64,000 nucleotides of DNA from Escherichia coli (GTDB lineage: Bacteria > Pseudomonadota > Gammaproteobacteria > Enterobacterales > Enterobacteriaceae): assembly GCF_030013595.1 (NCBI RefSeq), contig NZ_CP122770.1. One strand, given 5' to 3'. Below the pieces are notes generated by a model, which saw only the letters and a program-made list of their open reading frames with translations, was not told where the DNA came from and made no database searches. Both the position numbers and the translations under genes were made by a program. Each line of letters starts with the position of its first letter. Positions within the stretch are counted from its first letter, which is position 1. This document shows, in pieces, positions 31,339 to 48,527 of the stretch.

Positions 31339-31647
31339 TTATTGACCTATTGCACCATCACGTTCAAGCTTCTCTCTTATAGCCTCAATAATATATGAGC
31401 TAAAATCCAGAGATGTTTTACTGGTCGCTTTAAGTTCCGCATGAGCTTCAAAATACGACAGCGGTATGGCCTTAAGATTCTTAGCCTTCGTCCTGGCAGC
31501 CACGGGACGACCTGAAACTTCCTCTGCACCTTCATTTGGCTGAGACGGGGCTGTTGCTGTTACGGCAGAAGAAGAAGTTTGTAATCTGGCAGAATCCACC
31601 AGGTTTTTCAGTTTTTCAGCCTGTGCACTAAATTTCGCTTTGCTCAT
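31339..31647 (-). CDS. parB: ParG/CopG-like ribbon-helix-helix centromere-binding protein
   Basis: 102 aa; unstructured N-terminus, C-terminal RHH-like LDFSSYIIEAIREKLERD; downstream of parA. Confidence 0.55.
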   Translation of the reverse strand: MSKAKFSAQAEKLKNLVDSARLQTSSSAVTATAPSQPNEGAEEVSGRPVAARTKAKNLKAIPLSYFEAHAELKATSKTSLDFSSYIIEAIREKLERDGAIGQ

Positions 31648-31733
31648 GAGATAACCCAGGATGTTTGTTAGATACTTAAAAGATATCCATTAAAAGCCCA
31701 AAGGATACTATATGGATACCCAATAGACACACC

Positions 31734-32378
31734 TTACTGTTTGTTATTTTCAATCAGATGATTGATTTCTTCGATCAGGGCAATAACTTCCTTACCTCCT
31801 GCCGAATAGCGCCCATGAACAGACTCAGTGATTCCCATCCCAGTCTCAATGACATCCTCAAATTCTGCACGAGCAGAAATGCGGCTCTTCATCAGCTTCA
31901 GATGTTTGAACGATGGCAGGATTGCATCAAGCTTAGGGAATTTCTTCTTGTTAGGATTAACTTTACAGAGATACAGGTGAGCAGTTATATCGGTCCCCAT
32001 GATAGAGCTGATTTCGTCCAGTACTCCATCAAAATGCATCAAACCAATACGTTCAGTCAGGGAGTCTTTTGAAGGGACAATAACGCAGTCTGCAAAGGCA
32101 ATCGCAGTACGGGTAAGATCTGAGTCAAATCCCCCACAGTCAATAAGTAACGTCTTATCGCTGTTCTTGTAGGGAGTCATAATTTCGATTAACTCATCCA
32201 CTGTTTTGGGTACTTTCACGGAAATTTCTTTTCCTTCAGGTCTCAGCCCCAGAATGATAGAAAGCCCGGTATGAGTATCCAGATCAACTGTATCAGACTT
32301 CATTTCACCAACAATGTTTACGGATGAAGTTGTCTTACCCACACCACCTTTGGGATGCGTATTAGCAATAACAGGCAT
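31734..32378 (-). CDS. parA: ParA-type Walker ATPase (small, type Ib partition)
   Basis: Walker A KGGVGKTT; ATG at 32378 with GGAGAT RBS. Confidence 0.8.
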   Translation of the reverse strand: MPVIANTHPKGGVGKTTSSVNIVGEMKSDTVDLDTHTGLSIILGLRPEGKEISVKVPKTVDELIEIMTPYKNSDKTLLIDCGGFDSDLTRTAIAFADCVIVPSKDSLTERIGLMHFDGVLDEISSIMGTDITAHLYLCKVNPNKKKFPKLDAILPSFKHLKLMKSRISARAEFEDVIETGMGITESVHGRYSAGGKEVIALIEEINHLIENNKQ

Positions 32379-32429
32379 AGTGTATCTCCAGAATCCACAT
32401 GTAATACCCATAAAGCCCCCATAAGACAC

Positions 32430-32538
32430 CTTTCGGATATCCAAGAGGTACTCAATAGATGTTTTTTTACTCTATACCGGTCCTGCATGTCAACAGAATA
32501 TGAAATACCGATAATATATCCATGAGATATCCGAAAGG
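32430..32538. promoter_or_regulatory. 13-bp perfect inverted repeats (cctttcggatatc / gatatccgaaagg) upstream of parA
   Basis: Direct reading; arms ~85 bp apart. Confidence 0.4.
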
Positions 32539-32557
32539 GATTTAAAAAAGTCAGAGC

Positions 32558-33337
32558 TTATGGAATTCTTTTGAGCATAGACACCGCATCGGACTCAGGC
32601 ATCGAAAACTGCACCCGGTGCCGTGCAGCCACATCCAGTGCAAACACCTTCGTGTAGACCTCCGTTGAGCTGATGGACTTATGCCCCATCAGACTCTGCA
32701 GGACCTTCAGCGGTATACCGGCATACAGCATATGCATCGCATAGGAATGGCGGAACGTATGTGGCGTGACCGGGACAGAGAACGTCACACCATCAGCGGC
32801 AGCGGCGGCAACCGCCTCCCCAATCCAGGTCCTGACCGTTCTGTCCGTCACTTCCCAGATCCGCGCTTTCTCTGTCCTGCCTGTTCGTTTATTACGCCGT
32901 TCCATGGGGATTTTCAGTGTGGCCACCATCGTCTGCAGCTGGCTGACGTACCAGGCGTCGGAGAGCGGAACCAGCCGGTGAGTCTGCTGACCGGCGGGCA
33001 TTCTTCCTGCCGTCCTGGCGGCTTTTTCGGTCCGCTGCTTCAGAGTGGCCAGCTGCACAAACGGATACGGAGGCGTGAGCGAAAAATCCCCCCGCGTCAG
33101 CGCCAGTGCTTCATTAATGCGCGCACCGGTGTTCCACAGTGTGGCCAGCAGCATCTTGCGGCGCAGATCCGGGACGTAATGGAGCAGGGCGCTCACTTCA
33201 GGGGCCAGCAGGTATTTTGGCAGTTCATCATGAACCATCGACATCTGGCGGAGTGCCAGCGCTGCCGGATAATCGATGGCAACAGGAAGCTGAGCGGCAT
33301 CCCGGGCATGGTGGATCGGTGCCGGCAGGTGCTGCAT
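32558..33337 (-). CDS. Tyrosine site-specific recombinase (XerD/ResD-like, likely multimer resolvase)
   Basis: C-terminal HTFRHSYAMHM...LMGH...EVYT catalytic motif block; start inferred at MQHLP. Confidence 0.8.
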   Translation of the reverse strand: MQHLPAPIHHARDAAQLPVAIDYPAALALRQMSMVHDELPKYLLAPEVSALLHYVPDLRRKMLLATLWNTGARINEALALTRGDFSLTPPYPFVQLATLKQRTEKAARTAGRMPAGQQTHRLVPLSDAWYVSQLQTMVATLKIPMERRNKRTGRTEKARIWEVTDRTVRTWIGEAVAAAAADGVTFSVPVTPHTFRHSYAMHMLYAGIPLKVLQSLMGHKSISSTEVYTKVFALDVAARHRVQFSMPESDAVSMLKRIP

Positions 33338-33338
33338 A

Positions 33339-33752
33339 TCAGTGTTCACTCCACGGGGAAACGTCGGGCAGTTTTTCCACAACCCGGTACTTTCCCGGAT
33401 AACGGAGCTGGTTACCGCCACGCGTCCAGACGGTGACAACAAAACCCCCGCCCTGGTTGTTTTCGGGGAGCAGGCGATCGCACTGCTCACTCAGCATGTG
33501 GATCACGAACGGCGCATCGCTGCCGTCTTCAAATACCAGTTCCAGCGCATCGCGGCCATCCAGCGTTCCCTTACTGATGATGACGTACTCAGCCCCCCGC
33601 ATCTCCCTGAGTAAATGTTTTGCCGCATCCGGGACAAGCAGCCTGGCTGCGCCGGCATTCCAGCTTAGGTAGACATATCCGGCCTGCGCCTGTACAGACT
33701 GCCAGTAATCCGTTCCGGCGACAGCCTGACCTTCATTCTCAATAAAAAACAT
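33339..33752 (-). CDS. Hypothetical protein upstream of recombinase (137 aa from MFFIENEG)
   Basis: ORF abutting recombinase start; no family recognised. Confidence 0.4.
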   Translation of the reverse strand: MFFIENEGQAVAGTDYWQSVQAQAGYVYLSWNAGAARLLVPDAAKHLLREMRGAEYVIISKGTLDGRDALELVFEDGSDAPFVIHMLSEQCDRLLPENNQGGGFVVTVWTRGGNQLRYPGKYRVVEKLPDVSPWSEH

Positions 33753-34029
33753 GGGTGACTCCTTTTTTCTTTTCCGGGCAGGGACGGTCATGCGATAACG
33801 TCATCCGTCATCACTGCCCTTACCGTCACGCCGTCTGATAACATCATGCCGTTATCATCATCACCATGATAACAAGCATCCATATAACCACGCCGTTAAA
33901 TTACCGGAGAGCCGCTTCCGTCAGATCCGACTTTCCTGAATATCACAACTTTCCGGAAGTGTATCACGCTGAGGAAATAATCATATCGCTGTTTTCCGCC
34001 CCTGCGCGGCGCATCACAGGTCAGGGAGA

Positions 34030-34300
34030 TGACACAACATATAGTGTCATCAGCAGCTGAATCAGGCACCACATGTTGTGCTGACGGGAGGTGGCGTTGT
34101 GTGGGGGGAGTGGGAGATCCGTCTCCGCCGGAAACCGGATCTGCGCGGCGGGAAACGGGCAAACGATATGATAATTAAGCAACACACATAAAATCATATC
34201 AGATATGATTTTCATCGTTAAAAATTAAACAATATCTGATATTATCAGAAATCAGGAGCACACAAATCATGCAGGATATGATTTTTACCTGTCAGAACAT
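34030..34300. promoter_or_regulatory. Cluster of palindromic boxes in divergent intergenic region
   Basis: gatgacacaacatatagtgtcatc; aaaatcatatcagatatgatttt; aatatctgatatt; recurring ATCAGATATGAT half-sites. Confidence 0.45.
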
Positions 34301-34320
34301 TATCAGATGGAGCGTGCAGG

Positions 34321-34578
34321 ATGGATCAGGAAATGACGTTTTCACTCAGCTATGAACAACTGACCCGGTTTGCGGAAAAACGCATCCGGGAATGCAATCT
34401 GGACAGCCAGGGCGCGATTTATCTCTGCGAGTCAGCCAAAGCCGGAGCCGTGCTGATCTTCTGGCATGAACTGGCCATAAATGGCTATGCCTCAATGAAT
34501 GCCATAAAGAGACAGGAGCTCATTGACGCCGACTTTCAGCGCCTCAGAAACCTCATCTGGCCGGAGGATGACAGGTAA
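34321..34578 (+). CDS. Hypothetical protein (85 aa), first gene of two-gene operon
   Basis: Stop overlaps next start (TAATG). Confidence 0.45.
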   Translation: MDQEMTFSLSYEQLTRFAEKRIRECNLDSQGAIYLCESAKAGAVLIFWHELAINGYASMNAIKRQELIDADFQRLRNLIWPEDDR

Positions 34579-35168
34579 TGACCCAGAGCCGCCGACCGTC
34601 GCCACTGCAGCGGAGAGTGCTGATTGTGCTGGCTGCCCTTGACGAAAAACGGCCGGGTCCCGTGCTGACGCGGGACCTGGAACGGGTGCTGGAGCGAAGC
34701 GGGGAAGCCCCGGTCTACGGGCCAAACCTGCGCGCCTCCTGCCGTCGTCTGGAGAATGCCGGCTGGCTGCGTACCCTGCGCGCTCCGAACCTGCAGCTGG
34801 CAGTGGAGCTGACGGACGCCGGCCGGGCCGTGGCACAGCCTCTGCTGCTGGCAGAACAGGACCGCCTCCGGGCAGAACAGCGTGCGGCAGAAGTCGTCGT
34901 ACTGCCGCTGGTCCCGGCAGCAGGTCTGCCCGCAGACGGCACTTCTGCCACTGATCTGGCGGTGGAGCTGAACGGCATGACGTATCAGGCCTGCCGTGGG
35001 GATTTTGTGGTACGTCTCGACGGCAGCACCTGTCTGCAGTTATGGAATAAAGAAGGCAGGGTGGTACGCCTGGAGGGCGATCCGCTGGAAGTGGCGCAGT
35101 GGCTGCAGGCCTGTCACGATGCCGGAATGGAGGTTCGTGTACAGGTTAATGAAAGCGTCACCCCGTAA
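34578..35168 (+). CDS. Hypothetical protein with N-terminal winged-helix-like region (196 aa)
   Basis: GC-rich ORF; N-terminus LQRRVLIVLAALDEKRPGPVLTRDLERVLERSG suggests wHTH. Confidence 0.45.
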   Translation: MTQSRRPSPLQRRVLIVLAALDEKRPGPVLTRDLERVLERSGEAPVYGPNLRASCRRLENAGWLRTLRAPNLQLAVELTDAGRAVAQPLLLAEQDRLRAEQRAAEVVVLPLVPAAGLPADGTSATDLAVELNGMTYQACRGDFVVRLDGSTCLQLWNKEGRVVRLEGDPLEVAQWLQACHDAGMEVRVQVNESVTP

Positions 35169-35495
35169 AAACATACCAGCACGGTTTACACGTTATCCCA
35201 TGGTGGCAGCAGGTTAACTTTCCTGCGCCACCAGTGGAAAGAGGCCATGAGCAGTCCGAACAAAAAACCACCCGTGATACTTATAATAATGGCCTCACCT
35301 GCCACCATTCCTGACGGCCCCCAGTAGATAAACCACATTGCACATCCCCAGGAAATGCCCCATAAGCTCCCCATCAACAGCGTGACCTGCCAGAACGGCA
35401 TAAAGGGTAATGGCGGAAGCCGGATACCCAGCCGCCAGAGAATACGCAGAAGAGGAGGGGCATAAGTAAGCGGCTCGCCAGAACCGTATTGATAT

Positions 35496-37067
35496 TTACT
35501 GAGAGGTCAGATCAACTTTCCAGGGCAACAGATCGCGTACCCGGTTTGCCGGCCAATCCTGGATATGCTCAATGACGTAACGCAGCCATTTTTCTGGTTC
35601 CACATTGTTCAGACGGCATGTGCCGATCAGCGAGTACAACACCGCCGCATGTTCGCCACCGCTGTCGGAACCCGCGAAGAGCCAGTTTTTCCGGCCTACG
35701 GCCACTCCCCGTAAGGCGTTCTCTGCGATGTTGTTGTCGATTTCCACCCAGCCATTACTGCAGTACACGTTCAGGGCCTCCCACTGTTTCAGCAGGTATG
35801 CGAACGCTTTTGCCGTATCCGAGTGACGCGACAGTGTTTTCATCTGTTCCTGTATCCAGTCATACAGTGACTGCATCAGTGGAGCCGCTCTGGCTTTTCT
35901 TGCTGCCAGACGCTGTTCTGCTGAACATCCCCGGACTTCTGCCTCGATGACATACAGTTCACCGATACGCTGCAGGGCTTCCGTGGTGATGTCGGTTGGC
36001 ACTCTTGCATGCACATCGTGGATTTTTCTCCGGGCATGGGCCATACACGCGGCTTCCGTTATTCTGCCGGATTCGTATAACGCCCGGTAACCACCGTAAG
36101 CATCTGCCTGAAGCACACCGCTGTAACCGGCCAGGTGATTCTGTGGATGGATACCTTTCCGGTCCGGGCTGTACGCGAACCAGACCGCCGGGGGCATCTG
36201 TGAACCGGCGTTACGGTCATCACGGACATAGACCCACAGCCGGGCAGTTCTTGTTTTACCACTGCCCGGCTCCTGGACCGGAACGGGGATATCATCCGCA
36301 TGGACTTTACCGGGCATCAGCACATACTGGCGCAGCACGTCATACAGCGGCTCCAGCAGTTCAGCAACGGCACCGGTCCAGCGCCCCAGCGTGGCGCGGC
36401 TCAGTTCCACGCCCTGACGAAGGTATATTTCTGACTGGCGGTATAACGGCAGATGGTCTGCATACTTCCCGGTGACGATATGAGCCAGAAGCCCCGCTCC
36501 GGCATAACTGCGTGCAATGGGTTTTGAAGGTACTGGTGCCTGCACGATATGGTCGCACCGGCAACAGGCCAGTTTCGGACGTTGTGTTTCGATAACCTTA
36601 AAAGCGCTGCTGATAAGCTCCAGTTGCTCTGACACATCACACCCCAGAGGACTGAGGTCACCACCACAGGCCGGGCAGCATTCCTCTTCCGGCCGGATGA
36701 CCCGGGTTTCACGGGGAAGTGAGGCCGGTAACGGCTTACGGGCTGAAGACTGGCGCAGGGCGGATGGCAGTACCGGGTCATATTGCTCATCCAGCGTTTC
36801 CGCCATTTCTTCCTGAAGTGCGCTGATTCGCTCCTGGGCTTCCTGTATCTGCCGTTCGGTTTTAGCGCGAAGTTTTTCTGAGCTTTTACCGAACTGCATG
36901 CGCTGCAGTTTCGCAACCAGCGCCTTCAGCCGGTTGATTTCGGAAGCATAAGCCGCCACCCGCTGTGAGAGCAGGCGGTTGTATTTCGCCATCTGGCGGA
37001 TGGTGTCCTGTTGCGTCTGCAACAGTGCCCGCAGGCGGGCATTCTCATGAGCAAGTGAGGTGTCCAT
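35496..37067 (-). CDS. IS66-family transposase TnpC
   Basis: 523 aa; coiled-coil N-terminus, CxxC zinc motifs, DDE region. Confidence 0.9.
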
Positions 37068-37086
37068 ATCCTCACTTTACAACGGG

Positions 37087-37434
37087 TTATATGCGGATGC
37101 CAGCGCGTTCCGTTCGTTTCGGGTGCTTCCAGTCGATGCCTTCGAGAAGCATGGACAACTGAGCCGGAGTAAGGTGAACCTTTCCATCGCGGGTGACCGG
37201 CCAGACGAAGCGGCCCCGCTCCAGGCGTTTGGTGAAGAGGCACAGTCCGTCACTGTCAGCCCACAGCACTTTTATCTGGTCACCCCGGCGTCCGCGGAAG
37301 ATGAACAGATGCCCGGAGAACGGGTCATCCTTCAGGACGTTCTGAACTTTTGAGGCCAGGCCGTTAAAGCCATTTCGCATATCGGTGATACCGGCAACCA
37401 GCCAGATACGCGAACCGGCAGGGAGAGATATCAT
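37087..37434 (-). CDS. IS66 Orf2
   Basis: 115 aa; LFIFRGRRGDQIKVLWADSDGLCLFTKRLERGRF typical of IS66 Orf2. Confidence 0.85.
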   Translation of the reverse strand: MISLPAGSRIWLVAGITDMRNGFNGLASKVQNVLKDDPFSGHLFIFRGRRGDQIKVLWADSDGLCLFTKRLERGRFVWPVTRDGKVHLTPAQLSMLLEGIDWKHPKRTERAGIRI

Positions 37435-38084
37435 CAGTGGCTGCTCCCTTTCATTTCGCGGATAAGTGTCTGTAATAACGCCGGTGTCAGTTCACCTTTC
37501 AGCCTGAGAGTTCCGGCCGGCAGAACCAGCTCGCAGCACAGACTGTCTGGCAGTGTATTTATCTGTTCAGGTATCTGCACTGGTGCCGGGATTTTATTAT
37601 CCGGCTCCGGAGTTAACGTCACGGGAAGTAGCGATGTTTCATGTTCGCCGGGCGGTTGCAGGCCACCGTTACGCCAGAGATGCCGCCAGTTAAAGAGCAG
37701 GTTATCGTTAATTCCATTCTCTCGAGCTATTTGTGCGACACAAGCACCGGGTAAAAGAGTTTGCTGAACCAGTCTCCATTTAAACTCCGGTGAAAATCGG
37801 TTCCGGCGGGGTTTCTCTGCTTTCACAGGCTGAGTCACGGTCGGGGCTGAAGGGTATCGCCCCGGGAAAAGAGCCCGGGCCAGTTGCCCGCAGGAATATT
37901 CACCGGAAAGAGGCCAGTCAGTGAATACCTGGTGAAATCGCCTCACCAGAGAAAAAATGGCGGTTTTGCTGACACCGGTCTGCGCAGAAATGCGCGGGTA
38001 CGACAGTGACTCGTCAAATCTCAGCTGTAGCACACGCAGGATCAATTCCGGATTGTCTGCCAGTACCGCTTTTCGTGCATTCAT
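37434..38084 (-). CDS. IS66 Orf1 (HTH accessory protein)
   Basis: 216 aa immediately upstream of Orf2 with overlapping stop/start. Confidence 0.8.
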   Translation of the reverse strand: MNARKAVLADNPELILRVLQLRFDESLSYPRISAQTGVSKTAIFSLVRRFHQVFTDWPLSGEYSCGQLARALFPGRYPSAPTVTQPVKAEKPRRNRFSPEFKWRLVQQTLLPGACVAQIARENGINDNLLFNWRHLWRNGGLQPPGEHETSLLPVTLTPEPDNKIPAPVQIPEQINTLPDSLCCELVLPAGTLRLKGELTPALLQTLIREMKGSSH

Positions 38085-38373
38085 CTTAAATGTCCCTTTA
38101 CTGCGAAAATGGACATTAGTATCGGAAACAGGAAAGGGAGGCGAAAGACGGTTTAAATGAGACGGTTACGGGCATAATTGCTCCGCCACATCTTTTTGCT
38201 GTCCATCAGGGCAATGGCCCGGGCTTTTTTCTGCTCAAAGGTCACAGGAGCACCTCCGTTCCATGATGTAAACGTGACACAGCTTATTGTTATTGATTAT
38301 TATTATCATGCTGTGGTTGTGTTGTCATGCATCAGTACACTGACAAAAGTGCAAAAGAAAGGAAAACAGGCAG

Positions 38374-38709
38374 ATGAACAGAAAATATTATTTTAATAAT
38401 ATGTGGTGGGGATGGGTGACGGGGGGATATATGCTGTATATGTCATGGGATTATGATTTTAAATACAGATTACTGTTCTGGTGTATTTCTCTCTGCGGAA
38501 TGGTTTTGTATCCGGTTGCAAAATGGTATATTGAAGATACAGCTCTGAAATTTACCCGGCCTGATTTCTGGAACAGCGGTTTTTTTGCTGATACACCTGG
38601 GAAAATGGGATTGCTTGCTGTTTATACGGGTACTGTTTTCATATTATCTCTTCCGTTAAGTATGATATATATTCTTTCTGTTATTATAAAAAGGCTGTCT
38701 GTAAGATAG
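38374..38709 (+). CDS. imm: Colicin Ia immunity protein (inner-membrane)
   Basis: 111 aa, Trp-rich hydrophobic; convergent with colicin gene as in colicin Ia/Ib loci. Confidence 0.8.
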   Translation: MNRKYYFNNMWWGWVTGGYMLYMSWDYDFKYRLLFWCISLCGMVLYPVAKWYIEDTALKFTRPDFWNSGFFADTPGKMGLLAVYTGTVFILSLPLSMIYILSVIIKRLSVR

Positions 38710-38730
38710 ACAGCCTGTCTTATATTTTAT

Positions 38731-40611
38731 TTAAATACCCCAGAACTTATTCGCTTTTTCCACAAGCGATTCATCAATCAGCGCACCGGTGACAGCCATC
38801 AGTAAACCATACCCGATAATGCCTAAAGCGCTTCCGGTAAGAATACTGAAGACCAGTGCAACAAGAGCCGTTGCGGCATTGCCTGCTATAATGGCTTCTG
38901 TTTTAACAAAAAGAGGACGCCAGTTCTCTGTCCGGACAGCCTTACCAAACTCAGTGATCCAGTCAGCAAGACTTGTAAATTTTCCTGCATATCCCAGTCC
39001 CCGACTGAATCTGTTCAGATTAGACGATATATCAGACAGCTTCACAGACTCAAGGGCTGCGGCAATCGCTGCACGATCTTTTGCATTAATTTTTTTGTTA
39101 ATGTCAGCCCGGTACTTTTCATACGTTTTTAATGCCTCTTCAACATTACGTATTTTCTTCCCTTTAGCCTGCCCGGCCATCTCTCTGGCTAACTGCTCAG
39201 CTTTTGCACCATATTTTTCTGAAACTGATTTCAGGAACTCTGTTGTGAAATTAATTGCGTCTTTCGTTGCCTTCAGTTCATCCTGTTTTCTTTTCTCTTC
39301 CGCTATCTTCTGATTGATGCCGGCAAGCTGGTTACGGATATTCTCTTTTTCCTTCAACAGGGCATTAAGAGCGTCATTTGCATGCTTTTGCTCATTTGTT
39401 CTGGCACTGAGGTTATTTCTCGCCGAATTTACCGCAGATTCAGCAGAGGTGATTTTATTTCTGGCATCAAGCAATCGTTGCCGTAACTTATCCCATTCAG
39501 CAACTTCAGCATTATAAATTTTCTTGTCACCTTCCACATCCTCTGTCACCACCGGATTCCGGTCATTCAGAATATTGCGTTTATAATCCAGACCGGAATG
39601 GGTCAGAAGATAATTCAGGTTTGCACGGTTATCGATGACTGCGCTGGTTGTGATTTTTATCGTACCGGCAAATCTCGGATCACCGCTCACAACAATAGAA
39701 TGATTTGTTGATGAACGCCCCGGGAATTTTTCAGGGGAAACTATCGTTTTGCCGTCAGGCGTGTTTTTCTGTTGCGTCAGCTGTTGTTCAGCTCTGGTTA
39801 ATGCATTACGGGCCGTGTTAAGCGATTCCGTCACTGAACTGAGTTTATTCCGGGCCTCTGAAATGGCCCTGTCATTCCGTGTCTGCTGCCCGAGCAGACG
39901 GGCCTGTTGTGCATCAAGAACGGCAAGGGCTGCCCCGCCATTTTTTTCCAGCTCTGACAACCGCGTGTCCAGAATACCTTTTCTGCGCTCGTATTCAGCA
40001 AGCATATCAGCGGCCTTCTTGTCTGCGTTCTGCGCATCCTTCTGCCGTTTTTCAGCCTGTTCGATTAACGACCTGGCCTCCCGGGGAGATATACGAAGAG
40101 AATCAGCATCAGCAAACAGCATCCGGCTCTCTGTATGCAGCCGGAGGGCATCATATCCGGCGATTTCAGTACGGAATCCGTATTCTCTCAGCTCTGCCTG
40201 CAGGAGTCTGAACTCCTGTCGTGTAATATCAGCGGCATCTGCGTTTCCGGCACGGAGTGTTTTCAGTGTGTTTTCATCTTTTTCCCTTGCAGCAATCGCC
40301 GCAGAGAGGCGTTTTCCGGCTTCAGTACGCTTATTCTCATTCTCTTTCTGCTGCGCGCTGAGCGTGTTTTTGTACGCTGTGATTTCCTTGTCCCTTTTTT
40401 CGATATCACTTCGGGTTGGGGAATCATCAACCCACTCGTTTCCGCCCCAGATGGTTTTGTTCCCGAAGGAACTCCATGCAGGCGGGGTACCATGAAAGAC
40501 ATCGACACGTGGAGGGTTTACATAAATATCAACGGCCATAATTTCATGGCCATCTGAATCATACCCCAGCGATTCTGCACCGGGATTTGTAATACGTACA
40601 GGGTCAGACAT
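38731..40611 (-). CDS. cia: Colicin Ia (pore-forming; Ia/Ib family)
   Basis: 626 aa from MSDPVRITNPGAESLGYDSDGHEIMAVDIY; C-terminal hydrophobic hairpin; Ia versus Ib call from immunity length and C-terminus, from recall. Confidence 0.8.
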   Translation of the reverse strand: MSDPVRITNPGAESLGYDSDGHEIMAVDIYVNPPRVDVFHGTPPAWSSFGNKTIWGGNEWVDDSPTRSDIEKRDKEITAYKNTLSAQQKENENKRTEAGKRLSAAIAAREKDENTLKTLRAGNADAADITRQEFRLLQAELREYGFRTEIAGYDALRLHTESRMLFADADSLRISPREARSLIEQAEKRQKDAQNADKKAADMLAEYERRKGILDTRLSELEKNGGAALAVLDAQQARLLGQQTRNDRAISEARNKLSSVTESLNTARNALTRAEQQLTQQKNTPDGKTIVSPEKFPGRSSTNHSIVVSGDPRFAGTIKITTSAVIDNRANLNYLLTHSGLDYKRNILNDRNPVVTEDVEGDKKIYNAEVAEWDKLRQRLLDARNKITSAESAVNSARNNLSARTNEQKHANDALNALLKEKENIRNQLAGINQKIAEEKRKQDELKATKDAINFTTEFLKSVSEKYGAKAEQLAREMAGQAKGKKIRNVEEALKTYEKYRADINKKINAKDRAAIAAALESVKLSDISSNLNRFSRGLGYAGKFTSLADWITEFGKAVRTENWRPLFVKTEAIIAGNAATALVALVFSILTGSALGIIGYGLLMAVTGALIDESLVEKANKFWGI

Positions 40612-40650
40612 TCGGTATCTCCTTCATCCTCTGAGGAAAACAAATGAATT

Positions 40651-40682
40651 AACTGCTTACGCATATGGATACATATACAGTA
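40651..40682 (-). promoter_or_regulatory. Putative overlapping LexA boxes and promoter of colicin gene
   Basis: Minus strand TACTGTATATGTATCCATATGCGTAAGCAGTT downstream of TTGACA-like hexamer; halves degenerate. Confidence 0.5.
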
Positions 40683-40889
40683 TTAATTTATTAAGGAGAA
40701 AATGGCATGTCAAGATTTGATGATAGTGATTATCATTAACATGAAGTGATGTTACACCGTTCAGAAAGCCTGCTGACGCTGTGGCAGCATCACAGTCTGG
40801 GTATTCTCTGGTGCAATACAAAAACCGGACTTTCCCGTAACAACAGACAATGTTACGGGAAAAGTTACAGAACTGAGCCACAAAATATC

Positions 40890-42305
40890 TCAGTACCTGA
40901 GATGCATAAAAACACCGTACATATGTTTCTTAAAAGGGGGATGATCGTTATCCAGCCATTTCGGTGGATCGGTATGCAGAACACCAATCTGCTTCATGCC
41001 GGTATGCTGCCTGGATTTTCTCGCGCAGTAATCACTGTCTTCATATCCCATCGTTTCGATGACCACTCTGGCCGTCTTTCCGTCAGGAGCCCTTGCTGTG
41101 ACAATGAAATCCGGCAGTACATATTTCTTTTCACCATTAACATAAACTTCTGTATCAAACAGGGGCCTTTCCAGACTTAATTCCGGCGTACCTGGCTTTC
41201 TTTTAAGCCAGCTGGCCACATTCAGAAGAGCAGTGAGCGTGTTTCGTTCCAGTTTGCTGTCCACAGGCACCGGACATGTCAGTTGATAAAGAGCATGAGC
41301 ATACCCTTCACTGCAGATGATTCTGCCATCGGCACTCCGGCAAAAAGCAAGAATAACCCAGTAAGGGGGACGTATTCCGCCCTGCGCTTCACCATTAATA
41401 CTGATCCCCCGCACAGGTCTGATGACCTGAATATTACCGTTCGCCCAGTGAATTTCCACAGCATCACGACAGATGTGCTGCGCCATAAAAATCTGAAAGA
41501 ACATATGCTTTCTTCTGGCAGGCCAGTGTCGTTCTGAATTCTCCAGCGTTTCCATTAACCGCTCCTGAGACCTTTCAGACATTCCTGGCCGGAAATGGAT
41601 AATTTCAGATAAGGCTCTTCCCCGAATATACTCCTGCTGTAGTGTAACCTGCCGTATGGCATCAAGACACTCACGATAATTAGTCCGGATACGGGGATTA
41701 GCCAGGGAATCCAGTTTATTCAGCCCTGCATCTTCAATAAGCGACAGGAGTAAACGGCCAAGGCGCGGACGTTTCTTGCGAACGGAGGAGCGCTCACCAT
41801 TATGGTAAGCAGAGCGGGCCTGCAGTCTGATAACAGAATTACTGTCATCAGGTGGTAAAAAGTTTCTGTAATTTATACGGGTGCTAACGGGATGCCGGCT
41901 TGCTCCGAAGGATGTTTCCTCTTCATTTCCGGATAACTGACGATACATGGGGCATTCAGGTGCATGCTCATGATTAAAACTGGACAGATAAAGAGTACCC
42001 GTATTGTTTTTAAGAGCAGCAAAATTCATGGCCGGCGAATCTCCCGGAATACAGTCACACTGTAACCATGCATCATACTCACGCATTTCCCGGAGAAGAG
42101 CATTGGCCAGGTTATGTTGTGCCATGGTTGCTGGCCTTTTCAGTCCACAGACCGTCTTTACTGCAGTCTCTTCCTCACTGCTAAGCTCCCGAATCACTTT
42201 GCCCCGGGGATTCTTCTTTACAAGTATCATTGGCATAATGAAAGCACTCCTTATGTACATGCTTAAACAGTAAGTAAAATATACAAAGAACCCCCCATGA
42301 AACAA
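40890..42305 (-). CDS. Large conserved hypothetical protein (possibly DUF1173-like); start likely internal (MPMILVKK)
   Basis: 471-aa ORF; C-terminal YVLPDFIVT...VVIETMGYEDSDY block. Confidence 0.5.
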   Translation of the reverse strand: MFHGGFFVYFTYCLSMYIRSAFIMPMILVKKNPRGKVIRELSSEEETAVKTVCGLKRPATMAQHNLANALLREMREYDAWLQCDCIPGDSPAMNFAALKNNTGTLYLSSFNHEHAPECPMYRQLSGNEEETSFGASRHPVSTRINYRNFLPPDDSNSVIRLQARSAYHNGERSSVRKKRPRLGRLLLSLIEDAGLNKLDSLANPRIRTNYRECLDAIRQVTLQQEYIRGRALSEIIHFRPGMSERSQERLMETLENSERHWPARRKHMFFQIFMAQHICRDAVEIHWANGNIQVIRPVRGISINGEAQGGIRPPYWVILAFCRSADGRIICSEGYAHALYQLTCPVPVDSKLERNTLTALLNVASWLKRKPGTPELSLERPLFDTEVYVNGEKKYVLPDFIVTARAPDGKTARVVIETMGYEDSDYCARKSRQHTGMKQIGVLHTDPPKWLDNDHPPFKKHMYGVFMHLRY

Positions 42306-42589: not shown

Positions 42590-43183
42590 ATGGGAAAAAA
42601 TCAGGAAGAAAGGAAAACTCCCGTCATTGTGGTGAAAAAACGTCGTACTTTTTCGCCACCGTCCTTATCCGAAAAAACAGATATTATCGCACCTGTATTT
42701 ACTGAACAGACGGCAGAATCAGCCCCCGCCGGAATAAATTCATCTGCCGTCGAAACACATATCCCCGAAGCGCCAGCCAGGAAGAAGAAAAAGAAAAGAC
42801 ACCGTTTTCCACGTCCCTCCCACTGGACCCGTGAGTATACTCACGAGTGCGTGGAAAAAATAAAGGCCCTGTTTCCTCATCTTCGTGCTGAAGGTGGTGG
42901 ATTTATTCCCCTGAAAATTGGCATAAGCAATGATATTTCGGCATTTCTGGCAGAAAGCCCGGATACAGAACTGTCCATGGACGAATGGTTCTGTGCAGTG
43001 TCCTGCATCACCTCCCGCCGCGTATATCTGCAGCGGACCTCTGTCGCCGGCGTCCCTCGTTATGGGCTGGATGGTCATCCCGATGGGCAGGTCTCAGAAA
43101 CTGAAGCACAGAGTGCTGTTCAAAGACTGGCGATAATAGAACAACGGTGGCTCAGGATGAAGGAACGGCAGACTGAGCAATAA
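42590..43183 (+). CDS. ProQ/FinO-domain RNA-binding protein
   Basis: 197 aa; basic N-terminus, FinO-like central region; assignment from recall. Confidence 0.55.
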   Translation: MGKNQEERKTPVIVVKKRRTFSPPSLSEKTDIIAPVFTEQTAESAPAGINSSAVETHIPEAPARKKKKKRHRFPRPSHWTREYTHECVEKIKALFPHLRAEGGGFIPLKIGISNDISAFLAESPDTELSMDEWFCAVSCITSRRVYLQRTSVAGVPRYGLDGHPDGQVSETEAQSAVQRLAIIEQRWLRMKERQTEQ

Positions 43184-47375: not shown

Positions 47376-47452
47376 AAGCTGTCGCTTATGGCGGAGCGAT
47401 TGTGCCGTGTATTTATACACTGCACAGGGTTGAATCTCTGGTACGGTTTCAT
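47363..47452 (-). CDS. repY: RepY leader peptide (29 codons) coupled to repZ translation
   Basis: ATG at 47452, stop at 47363 overlapping repZ start; MKPYQRFNPVQCINTRHNRSAISDSLWQV. Confidence 0.65.
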   Translation of the reverse strand: MKPYQRFNPVQCINTRHNRSAISDSLWQV

Positions 47453-47464
47453 TATACTTTACCC

Positions 47465-47536
47465 GTATTCTGTGAGGCCCCCACTATCTTTCGTCGTTCC
47501 GCCAAGTTCGTAAGAAAGATAGTGGGGGTTTTCCTT
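47465..47536 (+). ncRNA. inc: Inc antisense RNA (copy-number control), approximate
   Basis: 14-bp perfect stem (47476-47491 / 47515-47528), loop with CCGCCAA (mRNA loop UUGGCGG), T-rich tail on plus strand. Confidence 0.55.
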
Positions 47537-47973: not shown

Positions 47974-48527
47974 CGTAAATAGAATAATTCTTAGATGATA
48001 AAACCATTTGTTACACAACCCGCCAATTGTGTAACAACAGCCTCTACAAGAGCATATTTGTTCATATGTTCGTCAGAACTGCGGATTGTCTGGACGAGGG
48101 TCAGACACCGTTTCGTGCATATGGACCAGCATGTTCGAACGCCACAAAGCAGAAGCATCATGCCTGGATCGCTTCGGCGCGGAGCGTTAAGTTTTGACGC
48201 TTTTTTGTATGTTTTTTAAGCTGTTAGTTGACTCGGTGCGTTATACTAAGTACCCTTTACTGGTCACAGGCAAAACTGTGATCGGGCGTAGGAACCCGCG
48301 TAGTCATCGTCGGCGCAGAAGTTAATTTCTTCATTTGGCGTCGTTTTTTGCCATACCATAAAGACAGGAACTTGTATTTCTTGTCGTCATCTATGGTAGC
48401 TCAGGCGGGGCAGGCATTAGCCTGGCCGGTTTCCGATGACGCCGGTATTCCTACCCCCGTCTGGGCTATCACCAATGAGCGTAGGAACTCGGTGATAGCG
48501 TTTTTAGTTGTCATCGGAGACCTTTGC

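What the first reader, a model, noticed from the sequence alone, without database searches (positions are those of the whole stretch)
35186..38245. IS66 insertion with gggcataa target duplications splits a small membrane-protein gene
The element (35466-38169) has three IS66-type ORFs and imperfect GTAA-starting inverted repeats flanked by identical 8-mers. Removing it and one duplication copy restores an ORF from GTG 38245 (GGAGG RBS) through the 71-aa minus ORF, giving a ~116-aa Trp-rich membrane protein next to the colicin immunity gene. Its loss could matter if it contributes to exclusion, abortive infection or immunity.
Basis: seen in the sequence. Interest (0 to 1): 0.45.

Follow-up and report, generated by a model that had tools for sequence, protein, structure and literature searches.

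The report
IS679 insertion splitting a DUF6404 gene
A common 2.7-kb jumping gene (IS679, IS66 family) has recently landed inside a small membrane-protein gene of unknown function next to the colicin Ia immunity gene of an IncI1 plasmid, which is an ordinary gene knock-out.

Summary
Window 35466-38169 is a complete 2,704-bp IS66-family element on the minus strand. It carries tnpA, tnpB and tnpC, has imperfect GTAA-starting terminal repeats, and is flanked by a perfect 8-bp duplication (GGGCATAA).

Removing the element and one duplication copy restores a 115-codon ORF that matches Pfam DUF6404 end to end. About 8 kb of the excised window is then 100.000% identical, without gaps, to an uninterrupted plasmid contig in public data.

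The element is IS679 or a very close isoform. Its TnpC is 98% identical to a protein that NCBI's annotation pipeline (PGAP) names IS679-family. Identical copies sit at eight other sites, each with its own 8-bp duplication.

This exact insertion was found in no PLSDB plasmid and in none of 5,426 complete E. coli genomes, so it is probably recent and private to this plasmid.

The split gene encodes a predicted two-helix inner-membrane protein. The family occurs on plasmids, prophages and genomic islands, and no function is known for it. I found no link to colicin immunity, to known defence systems, or to IbfA, the known IncI1 abortive-infection protein. The neighbouring immunity gene and its promoter are untouched.

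Verdict: real, well explained and routine. Interest is low.

The parts
35466..38169 (-). Complete IS679-like insertion sequence of the IS66 family, 2,704 bp, with its genes on the minus strand.
   Evidence: Boundaries come from the TSDs and the terminal repeats. More than 15 PLSDB plasmids hold 100% identical full-length copies. It is about 98% identical, with the same ends, to a chromosomal copy whose TnpC PGAP names 'IS66-like element IS679 family transposase'. There is no second copy in the window.
38170..38177 (.). Target-site duplication copy GGGCATAA at the tnpA-proximal end.
   Evidence: The 8-bp TSD is the rule in 9 other copies.
35458..35465 (.). Target-site duplication copy GGGCATAA at the tnpC-proximal end.
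38148..38169 (-). Terminal inverted repeat next to tnpA (GTAACCGTCTCATTTAAACCGT on the minus strand).
   Evidence: It matches the other end at 15 of 22 positions. The end is identical in 8 other copies.
35466..35487 (+). Terminal inverted repeat next to tnpC (GTAAGCGGCTCGCCAGAACCGT).
   Evidence: The end is identical in 9 other copies.
37434..38084 (-). tnpA, 216 aa, helix-turn-helix accessory protein.
   Evidence: Pfam HTH_Tnp_1, E 7.5e-17. In 100% identical copies of the element, the ORF at these coordinates is annotated as WP_000993956.1, 'IS66-like element accessory protein TnpA'.
37087..37434 (-). tnpB, 115 aa, IS66 Orf2-type accessory protein. Its start overlaps the tnpA stop (ATGA).
   Evidence: Pfam TnpB_IS66, E 2.8e-40.
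35496..37067 (-). tnpC, 523 aa, DDE transposase.
   Evidence: Pfam DDE_Tnp_IS66 (E 9.5e-104), zf-IS66, LZ_Tnp_IS66 and DDE_Tnp_IS66_C. It matches a PGAP 'IS679 family transposase' at 512 of 523 residues.
38170..38245 (-). 5' fragment of the split DUF6404 gene: GTG start, codons 1-25 and 1 nt. It now reads into the IS as a 30-aa ORF (38245-38153) ending in RNRLI.
35186..35457 (-). 3' fragment of the split DUF6404 gene: codons 26-115 and the stop. The longest remaining ORF is 71 aa from ATG 35401. It holds both predicted membrane helices but has no Shine-Dalgarno sequence.
   Evidence: The helices are at residues 47-71 and 78-106 in the model and show as hydropathy peaks. The 71-aa product is not on record in any public assembly searched.
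38246..38373 (.). Intact divergent control region between the DUF6404 gene and the colicin Ia immunity gene. The RBS GGAGG lies on the minus strand at 38257-38253. Promoter-like sites face both ways.
   Evidence: minus strand ATGACA-18-AATAAT at 38328-38299, plus strand GTGACA-18-TATTAT at 38274-38303. These are consensus matches only. Sequence.
38374..38709 (+). Context: colicin Ia immunity gene, 111 aa, not touched by the insertion.
   Evidence: Pfam Microcin/colicin E1 immunity. Annotated 'colicin 1A immunity protein' at the matching place in related plasmids.

Best explanation
What happened. A copy of IS679, or a very close isoform of it (IS66 family), transposed into an IncI1 colicin-Ia plasmid. 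It landed within codons 24-26 of a 115-codon gene for a DUF6404 protein. A staggered 8-bp cut followed by repair produced the GGGCATAA duplication.

Effect on the gene.
- The 5' part is a 25-codon stub that runs into the IS. It still has its promoter and RBS.
- The 3' part is 90 codons with no promoter, no RBS and no upstream in-frame start.
- The result is a null allele. This step is inferred from the sequence.

The intact protein. It is predicted to be a small inner-membrane protein. It has a basic cytoplasmic N-terminal helical region with PP motifs and two membrane helices joined by a 6-residue loop. A basic cytoplasmic tail ends in a conserved LPxW motif. Its function is unknown. My best guess, which is inference only, is an accessory 'moron'-type membrane function of mobile elements, such as exclusion of incoming DNA or phage. 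I do not think it acts in colicin immunity.

Timing and side effects. The insertion is recent. It leaves the divergently transcribed immunity gene and the colicin gene intact.
For: Shown:
- Exact ends, TSD and inverted repeats.
- IS66-type TnpA, TnpB and TnpC.
- Ten independent copies each have a perfect 8-bp TSD at the same ends and at unrelated target sequences.
- 100% identical copies occur in many plasmids.
- TnpC is 98% identical to a PGAP-named IS679-family transposase.
- The excised ORF hits DUF6404 at positions 2-114 of 115, E 5.9e-36.
- The exact 115-aa protein is on record intact, with the same neighbours.
- The excised window is 100.000% identical to L025 over 7,989 bp with no gaps. 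L026 and L027 are also 100% identical, over 7,748 and 7,492 bp.
- The junction is absent from 72,556 PLSDB plasmids (best coverage 82%, which is the IS alone).
- The junction is absent from 5,426 complete E. coli genomes (no place covers 80% or more).
- No in-frame start lies upstream of ATG 35401 in the 3' part.

Protein architecture:
- AlphaFold2 model with pLDDT 97.2, helices at 3-16, 21-24, 27-34, 47-71 and 78-106.
- Hydropathy, and 9 Lys/Arg before the first membrane helix.
- The family is real: 762 clusters at 50% identity, with conserved motifs.
Against: Nothing contradicts the insertion itself.

The functional part is weak:
- No paper in the library mentions DUF6404.
- There is no PADLOC hit, and the PHROG match has unknown function.
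- There is no fold match in PDB or BFVD.
- No conserved gene partner appears across contexts.

The gene may matter little. It is frameshifted in the archetype plasmid ColIb-P9. Many truncated or chimeric alleles exist.

Naming the element IS679 rests on a PGAP label on a 98%-identical relative and on my recollection that IS679 is 2,704 bp (Han et al. 2001, J Bacteriol 183:4296; not readable here). The ISfinder reference could not be compared.
Confidence: 0.93

Rival explanations
1. The insertion is real but has no consequence. On this view the DUF6404 gene is a dispensable, often decayed passenger, so splitting it is selectively neutral.
For: The ColIb-P9 copy is frameshifted near codon 89 and is missing from the protein table. 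Many high-identity truncated or chimeric alleles appear among database clusters. The gene has no conserved partner and no known function.
Against: The exact intact allele is widespread (128 index blocks). The family has 762 clusters at 50% identity, with conserved motifs, and a very confident fold prediction. Both argue for a protein kept by selection in many elements. Many 'partial' database entries may simply be contig ends.
Confidence: 0.35
2. The 71-aa remnant (35401-35186) is still made, by read-through from tnpC or from an outward promoter of the IS. It keeps both membrane helices, so the gene would be only partly inactivated or changed in function.
For: The remnant ORF has the same orientation as the IS genes. 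It retains helices 47-71 and 78-106 and the C-terminal LPxW motif.
Against: No Shine-Dalgarno sequence lies before ATG 35401 (the upstream sequence is ccattacccttt). A hairpin at 35486-35471 lies in the IS end, though it is only a weak terminator-like match. The remnant lacks the conserved 44-residue N-terminal region. No promoter-like site was found facing out of the IS.
Confidence: 0.07
3. The junctions are an assembly artefact, with IS reads wrongly placed into the plasmid.
For: ISs with many identical copies are a common source of misassembly. The source reads are not available.
Against: A misassembly would not create a perfect 8-bp duplication of the target exactly at both true IS ends, with the flanks otherwise 100% identical to an empty site.
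Confidence: 0.02

Closest known systems
IS679 (IS66 family), first described on plasmid pB171 of enteropathogenic E. coli (Han et al. 2001, J Bacteriol 183:4296; cited from my own knowledge and from the reference list of PMC12115866)
   Same: It is 2,704 bp long (from memory of that paper). It has the tnpA-tnpB-tnpC order, GTAA-starting imperfect terminal repeats and 8-bp target duplications. TnpA and TnpB carry the same protein accessions as in a PGAP-labelled IS679-family copy, and TnpC is 98% identical to it.
   Different: TnpC differs at 11 of 523 residues from the PGAP-labelled copy. The nucleotide differences cluster in the 3' half of tnpC. PGAP gives this exact TnpC (WP_000381442.1) only the generic name 'IS66 family transposase'. 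A direct comparison with the ISfinder reference was not possible.
ISCro1 and other enterobacterial IS66-family elements
   Same: They share the family architecture. Some E. coli copies with about 93% identity over the element end are labelled ISCro1 family.
   Different: Their identity is lower than that of the IS679-labelled copy (about 93% against 99.5% over the same end).
Pfam DUF6404 (PF19942) / PHROG 31022
   Same: The reconstructed protein matches the whole model (2-114 of 115, 123.8 bits against a cut-off of 27.6). It also matches phrog_31022, E 9e-38.
   Different: Nothing structural differs; here the gene is simply interrupted. No function is assigned to the family.
Colicin Ia/E1-type immunity proteins (PF03526), the neighbouring gene
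   Same: Both are small inner-membrane proteins of about 111-115 aa, encoded side by side on colicin plasmids.
   Different: There is no sequence match (only DUF6404 was hit). DUF6404 has two rather than three predicted membrane helices. Homologues occur in prophages and chromosomal islands without any colicin gene.
IbfA of R64/pUA1135, the characterised IncI1 abortive-infection protein
   Same: It is an accessory gene in a variable region of an IncI1 plasmid.
   Different: IbfA is a 518-aa ATPase-TOPRIM protein homologous to the HEC-04 defence system (PMC12111858). It is unrelated in size and in domain make-up (DUF6404 hit only its own Pfam model and nothing in PADLOC).

Membership tests
IS66 family insertion sequence | Three consecutive ORFs, tnpA (HTH), tnpB (IS66 Orf2) and tnpC (DDE transposase with zinc finger and leucine zipper). 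| tested here: met
   Pfam hits HTH_Tnp_1, TnpB_IS66 and DDE_Tnp_IS66 plus zf-IS66, LZ_Tnp_IS66 and IS66_C, all above their cut-offs. tnpA and tnpB overlap in ATGA.
IS66 family insertion sequence | 8-bp direct target-site duplication. | tested here: met
   GGGCATAA lies at both ends. Nine other copies each have their own perfect 8-bp TSD.
IS66 family insertion sequence | Imperfect terminal inverted repeats of about 20-30 bp that start with GTAA. | tested here: met
   The ends match at 15 of 22 positions and both start with GTAA.
IS66 family insertion sequence | Transposition activity. | not testable with these tools
   The only support is indirect. Copies 100% identical to this one sit at 8 other sites in different plasmids. 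An empty site 100% identical to the flanks exists.
IS679 (as a named element) | At least 95% nucleotide identity, or at least 98% transposase identity, to the ISfinder IS679 reference (ISfinder's isoform rule, from my own knowledge). | tested here: inconclusive
   The reference sequence (pB171) is not in the collections. As a proxy, TnpC is 98% identical and the DNA about 98% identical to a copy that PGAP names 'IS679 family'.
DUF6404 (PF19942) | A full-length match to the family HMM above the gathering score. | tested here: met
   123.8 bits against a cut-off of 27.6, residues 2-114 on model positions 2-114 of 115. The match applies only to the in-silico repaired ORF.
Colicin immunity protein (PF03526) | A match to the immunity-protein HMM. 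| tested here: not met
   The DUF6404 protein gave no such hit at E <= 0.01, while the neighbouring 111-aa ORF did.
Known anti-phage defence systems (PADLOC-DB v2) | A match to any defence-protein model. | tested here: not met
   No family matched at E <= 1.
   Rfam PK-repZ, 194 bits. TraI/MobA(P) relaxase, TrbC, PilN and a pilus-assembly ATPase. The order 85-aa ORF, 196-aa ORF, DUF6404, imm, colicin is the same as in ColIb-P9, which PLSDB types as IncI1/B/O.

The most novel reading that the evidence does not exclude
DUF6404 proteins could be a widespread family of small membrane proteins, carried by mobile elements, that exclude or abort incoming phage or DNA, or otherwise modulate the cell envelope. 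On that reading this plasmid would be a natural knock-out whose host is more open to phage or plasmid entry than hosts of sibling plasmids.

The only support is positional. Homologues sit in the 'moron' slot beside the Arc/antirepressor immunity module of two Xenorhabdus prophages, one of them next to an Mrr-type nuclease. Others lie in Klebsiella phage records and in H-NS-marked islands of Salmonella.
Probability: 0.12. Interest if true: 0.5.

Novelty: already known. Interest (0 to 1): 0.12.

Why it matters
It matters little. The finding is a textbook IS insertion and serves mainly as an annotation note. The two ORF fragments (30 aa and 71 aa) should be annotated as one DUF6404 pseudogene interrupted by IS679.

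The insertion could serve as a lineage marker for this plasmid, because the junction was not found in PLSDB or in complete E. coli genomes.

The one open question it touches is what DUF6404 does. The family has about 760 clusters at 50% identity, is predicted with very high confidence, and has never been studied. An isogenic pair already exists in nature: this plasmid, and sibling plasmids that are 100% identical over the 8 kb compared. That pair would allow a cheap phenotype test.

Tried and rejected
1. Target-site preference. The TSD here (GGGCATAA) resembles that of the chromosomal IS679-family copy in L002 (AGGCATAC), which suggested a preferred target. Eight more copies have unrelated, mostly AT-rich TSDs. 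I rejected the idea as coincidence.

2. A link to the classical ColIb/R64 abortive-infection genes. IbfA of R64/pUA1135 is a 518-aa ATPase-TOPRIM protein located elsewhere (PMC12111858), so it is not this gene. The ColIb ibfA/ibfB paper of 1982 could not be read. I therefore could not exclude that the classical ColIb ibf loci map near here.

3. A conserved gene partner for DUF6404. The neighbours differ in every context: a beta-propeller-like 453-aa ORF in Klebsiella, an Mrr nuclease or coiled-coil ORFs in Xenorhabdus prophages, and Sel1-repeat proteins in Salmonella. There is no operon logic.

4. Fold comparison. The AlphaFold2 model is excellent (pLDDT 97), but Foldseek found nothing with E <= 0.001 in PDB or BFVD. 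The afdb50 library was not available.

5. The pB171 reference for IS679 (NC_002142, AB024946) and the Han et al. 2001 paper are not held.

6. A composite transposon or a second IS copy. There is none in the window.

7. Three ORFs of equal length (197 aa) at 42590, 46209 and 51324 looked like a repeat. Their sequences are unrelated.
Full report
**Observation**

I read 34900-38500 and listed the ORFs on both strands.

- The element runs from 35466 to 38169 and is 2,704 bp long.
- The 8-mer GGGCATAA lies at 35458-35465 and at 38170-38177, directly against both ends.
- These are its only two + strand occurrences in the 64-kb window.
- A given 8-mer is expected about once per strand in 64 kb. Two copies placed exactly at both ends of a mobile element is a chance of about 1.5e-5.
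- The ends are GTAAGCGGCTCGCCAGAACCGT and, on the other strand, GTAACCGTCTCATTTAAACCGT. They match at 15 of 22 positions and both start with GTAA.

**The element**

The three minus-strand ORFs all hit IS66-family Pfam models well above their cut-offs.

| ORF | Coordinates (minus strand) | Length | Pfam hits |
|---|---|---|---|
| tnpA | 38084-37434 | 216 aa | HTH_Tnp_1 |
| tnpB | 37434-37087 | 115 aa | TnpB_IS66 |
| tnpC | 37067-35496 | 523 aa | DDE_Tnp_IS66, zf-IS66, LZ_Tnp_IS66, DDE_Tnp_IS66_C |

Copies elsewhere:

- A megablast against PLSDB found 2,743 plasmids with related sequence. At least 15 hold 100% identical full-length copies, mostly in pig and cattle E. coli.
- A chromosomal copy in E. 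coli 10035776-3 (L002) has the same ends and about 98% nucleotide identity.
- PGAP names that copy's transposase 'IS66-like element IS679 family transposase'. Our TnpC matches it at 512 of 523 residues.
- In the 100% identical plasmid copies of this element, TnpA and TnpB carry the same protein accessions as in L002.

The published IS679 is 2,704 bp long and makes 8-bp duplications. That is my recollection of Han et al. 2001, which is listed in the references of PMC12115866 but is not readable here. The pB171 reference is not in the collections. I therefore call the element IS679 or a close isoform.

I took the flanks of eight 100% identical plasmid copies and of L002. Every copy has a perfect 8-bp duplication at the same two ends. 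The ten targets, read in the IS gene orientation, are:

- TTATGCCC (this window)
- TTTCTTTT
- TAAATTAT
- AGAAGAAT
- GCAGTAAT
- ATTTACAG
- ATCTGGAA
- ATTATTTT
- CCTGAAAG
- GTATGCCT (L002)

This fixes the boundaries. It also shows an element that is actively spreading and has no target consensus. There is no second copy in the window.

**The interrupted gene**

Deleting 35466-38177 joins GTG 38245 to the stop at 35186 in one frame. The result is 115 aa with 10 Trp.

- The GTG is preceded by GGAGG with a 7-nt spacer (sequence).
- The repaired protein matches Pfam DUF6404 from residue 2 to 114 of a 115-position model (E 5.9e-36, 123.8 bits against a cut-off of 27.6).
- It also matches phrog_31022, which has unknown function.
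- A 609-bp empty-site query found 2,829 plasmids. Of these, 2,011 cover 80% or more of it. They are annotated 'DUF6404 family protein' next to 'colicin 1A immunity protein'.

The decisive test was an exact look-up of the repaired protein.

- The exact 115-aa sequence is on record intact in 128 index blocks. It lies on 85-89-kb contigs with the same neighbours: a yagA-like gene, colicin Ia, imm, DUF6404, the 196-aa ORF and the 85-aa ORF.
- The excised window (31500-35465 joined to 38178-42200, 7,989 bp) is 100.000% identical, without gaps, to L025 (GCA_007361625.1).
- It is also 100% identical to L026 over 7,748 bp and to L027 over 7,492 bp. One search showed that these rows belong to separate loci held in one file.

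This is the signature of a precise and recent transposition.

The insertion allele itself was not found anywhere:

- No PLSDB plasmid covers more than the IS part of a 3.3-kb query across both junctions.
- None of 5,426 complete E. coli genomes holds the left junction.
- The 71-aa remnant product is not on record.

**Consequences**

- The 5' stub keeps its promoter-like site, RBS and 25 native codons. It then reads five IS codons (RNRLI) to a stop, giving the 30-aa ORF at 38245-38153.
- The 3' part has no in-frame start before ATG 35401, and no Shine-Dalgarno sequence precedes that ATG.
- I therefore infer a null allele.
- The divergent control region 38246-38373 is untouched. It holds promoter-like sites on both strands.
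- The immunity gene (38374-38709) and the colicin Ia gene (40611-38731) are also untouched, so colicin production and immunity should not change. This too is inferred.
- Transcription from the DUF6404 promoter now enters tnpA and could raise IS expression. This is speculation.

**What DUF6404 might be**

- No paper in the library mentions it.
- An exhaustive HMMER search found 762 clusters at 50% identity with E <= 0.001. Nearly all are stand-alone proteins of 110-125 aa.
- An alignment of 52 members shows these conserved features: an N-terminal helix, PP and PPP motifs, two hydrophobic helices, a basic stretch, and a C-terminal LPxW with an invariant Trp.
- AlphaFold2 gives pLDDT 97.2 and pTM 0.84, with helices at 3-16, 21-24, 27-34, 47-71 and 78-106.
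- Hydropathy and charge suggest that both termini lie in the cytoplasm. There are 9 Lys/Arg before the first membrane helix, the loop is GPSGMV, and RRK follows the second helix.
- Foldseek found nothing significant in PDB or BFVD, and PADLOC found nothing.

Homologues at 50-62% identity lie in accessory positions with changing neighbours:

- A Klebsiella chromosomal islet (L004).
- Two Xenorhabdus prophages, directly beside the divergent Arc/antirepressor module. One copy sits next to an Mrr-type nuclease (L008, L016).
- Salmonella islands with an H-NS-like gene and a Sel1-repeat gene (L009-L014).
- A locus that resembles a plasmid leading region (L015).
- Two Klebsiella phage records.

They fit an accessory membrane function carried by mobile elements. 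They do not identify what that function is.

Two further points:

- The known IncI1 abortive-infection gene ibfA encodes a 518-aa ATPase-TOPRIM protein and is unrelated (PMC12111858).
- The gene may be dispensable. The ColIb-P9 copy is frameshifted, and many truncated or chimeric alleles exist.

**Context**

The window is an IncI1-type plasmid.

- Rfam finds PK-repZ at 47388-47536.
- NCBIfam finds TrbC, a MobP-type relaxase, a ParB-like protein, UmuC/ImpB, PilN and a pilus-assembly ATPase.
- The closest PLSDB backbones are 86-91-kb Salmonella and E. coli plasmids at about 98.9% identity over 8.5 kb.
- The public draft assemblies are identical over the 8 kb compared.

**Verdict**

The element is a known IS, the gene belongs to a known family of unknown function, and the event is an ordinary recent insertion. 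Interest is low. The only residual value is that nature has provided an isogenic knock-out of an unstudied, widespread small membrane protein.

Noticed in passing
window 19706-22004 (+), ORF 20256-21923: A complete-looking group II intron lies in the plasmid leading region. Rfam matches group-II-D1D4-7 at 19706-19855 and Intron_gpII at 21928-22004. The 555-aa ORF matches the group II reverse transcriptase/maturase model (E 3e-115). A paper notes that one E. coli intron (E.c.I3) homes into IS679 (PMC3522654). This intron is not inside the IS679 copy here.
   Followed up: partly
window 48389-48476 (+): An Rfam C4 antisense RNA match (77.5 bits, gathering score 45) lies about 1 kb from the repZ control region. 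This is the P1/P7-type immunity RNA family, here on an IncI1 plasmid. I did not examine its neighbours.
   Followed up: no
window 12120-12613 vs 19158-19655; 13303-13656 vs 23292-23644; 9210-9538 vs 12116-12441: Dispersed direct repeats of 330-500 bp at 82-94% identity lie in the leading region. One copy ends about 50 bp before the group II intron. They may be the single-strand promoter or initiation repeats known from leading regions. I did not test that.
   Followed up: no
L003 (ColIb-P9, NC_002122) 10658-10978: The DUF6404 gene of the archetype plasmid ColIb-P9 is frameshifted near codon 89, in a run of G. It gives a 106-aa product with a foreign tail. Its locus tag is missing from the protein table, which suggests that it is annotated as a pseudogene. 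This could be a real mutation or an old sequencing error.
   Followed up: partly
L008 5001-5351 and L016 5001-5351 (Xenorhabdus chromosomes): DUF6404 homologues (55-58% identical) sit in prophages, immediately beside a divergent pair of Arc-family repressor genes followed by antirepressor genes. In phage P22, as I recall, this is where accessory genes such as sieA lie. In L008 the upstream neighbour is an Mrr-type nuclease that hits PADLOC models (ZorD nuclease domain, type IV restriction).
   Followed up: partly
L011 5417-6553 and L012 5398-6417 (Salmonella contigs): In two different Salmonella islands the gene directly downstream of DUF6404 encodes a Sel1-repeat protein (378 and 339 aa; Pfam Sel1 E 1e-93 and 4e-83). 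An H-NS-like gene lies nearby in L012 (and in L009, L010), but not in L011.
   Followed up: no
L028 1-450 and 742-1356: A sibling plasmid with the intact DUF6404 allele carries a different IS66-family element (TnpB_IS66 and a 126-aa HTH_Tnp_1 ORF) just upstream of a shortened yagA-like gene (204 instead of 448 aa). IS66-family elements have therefore hit this plasmid region more than once.
   Followed up: no
window 34321-35168 (+) versus 38374-38709 (+): Composition changes sharply around the finding. The 196-aa ORF is 65% G+C, the DUF6404 gene is 53%, the immunity gene is 36% and the whole window is 51%. The 85-aa ORF has no family hit. The 196-aa ORF has only weak ones (phrog_19460, and a marginal JetA-like match). 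The two ORFs travel with DUF6404 and imm on both IncI1 and IncFIB plasmids.
   Followed up: no
PLSDB hits H1-H15; L017-L024: Copies 100% identical to this IS lie on IncI1, IncI-gamma/K1, IncF and IncHI2 plasmids, mostly from pig and cattle E. coli in China, Belgium and France, each at a different site. This suggests a recent burst of the IS variant in livestock-associated E. coli.
   Followed up: partly
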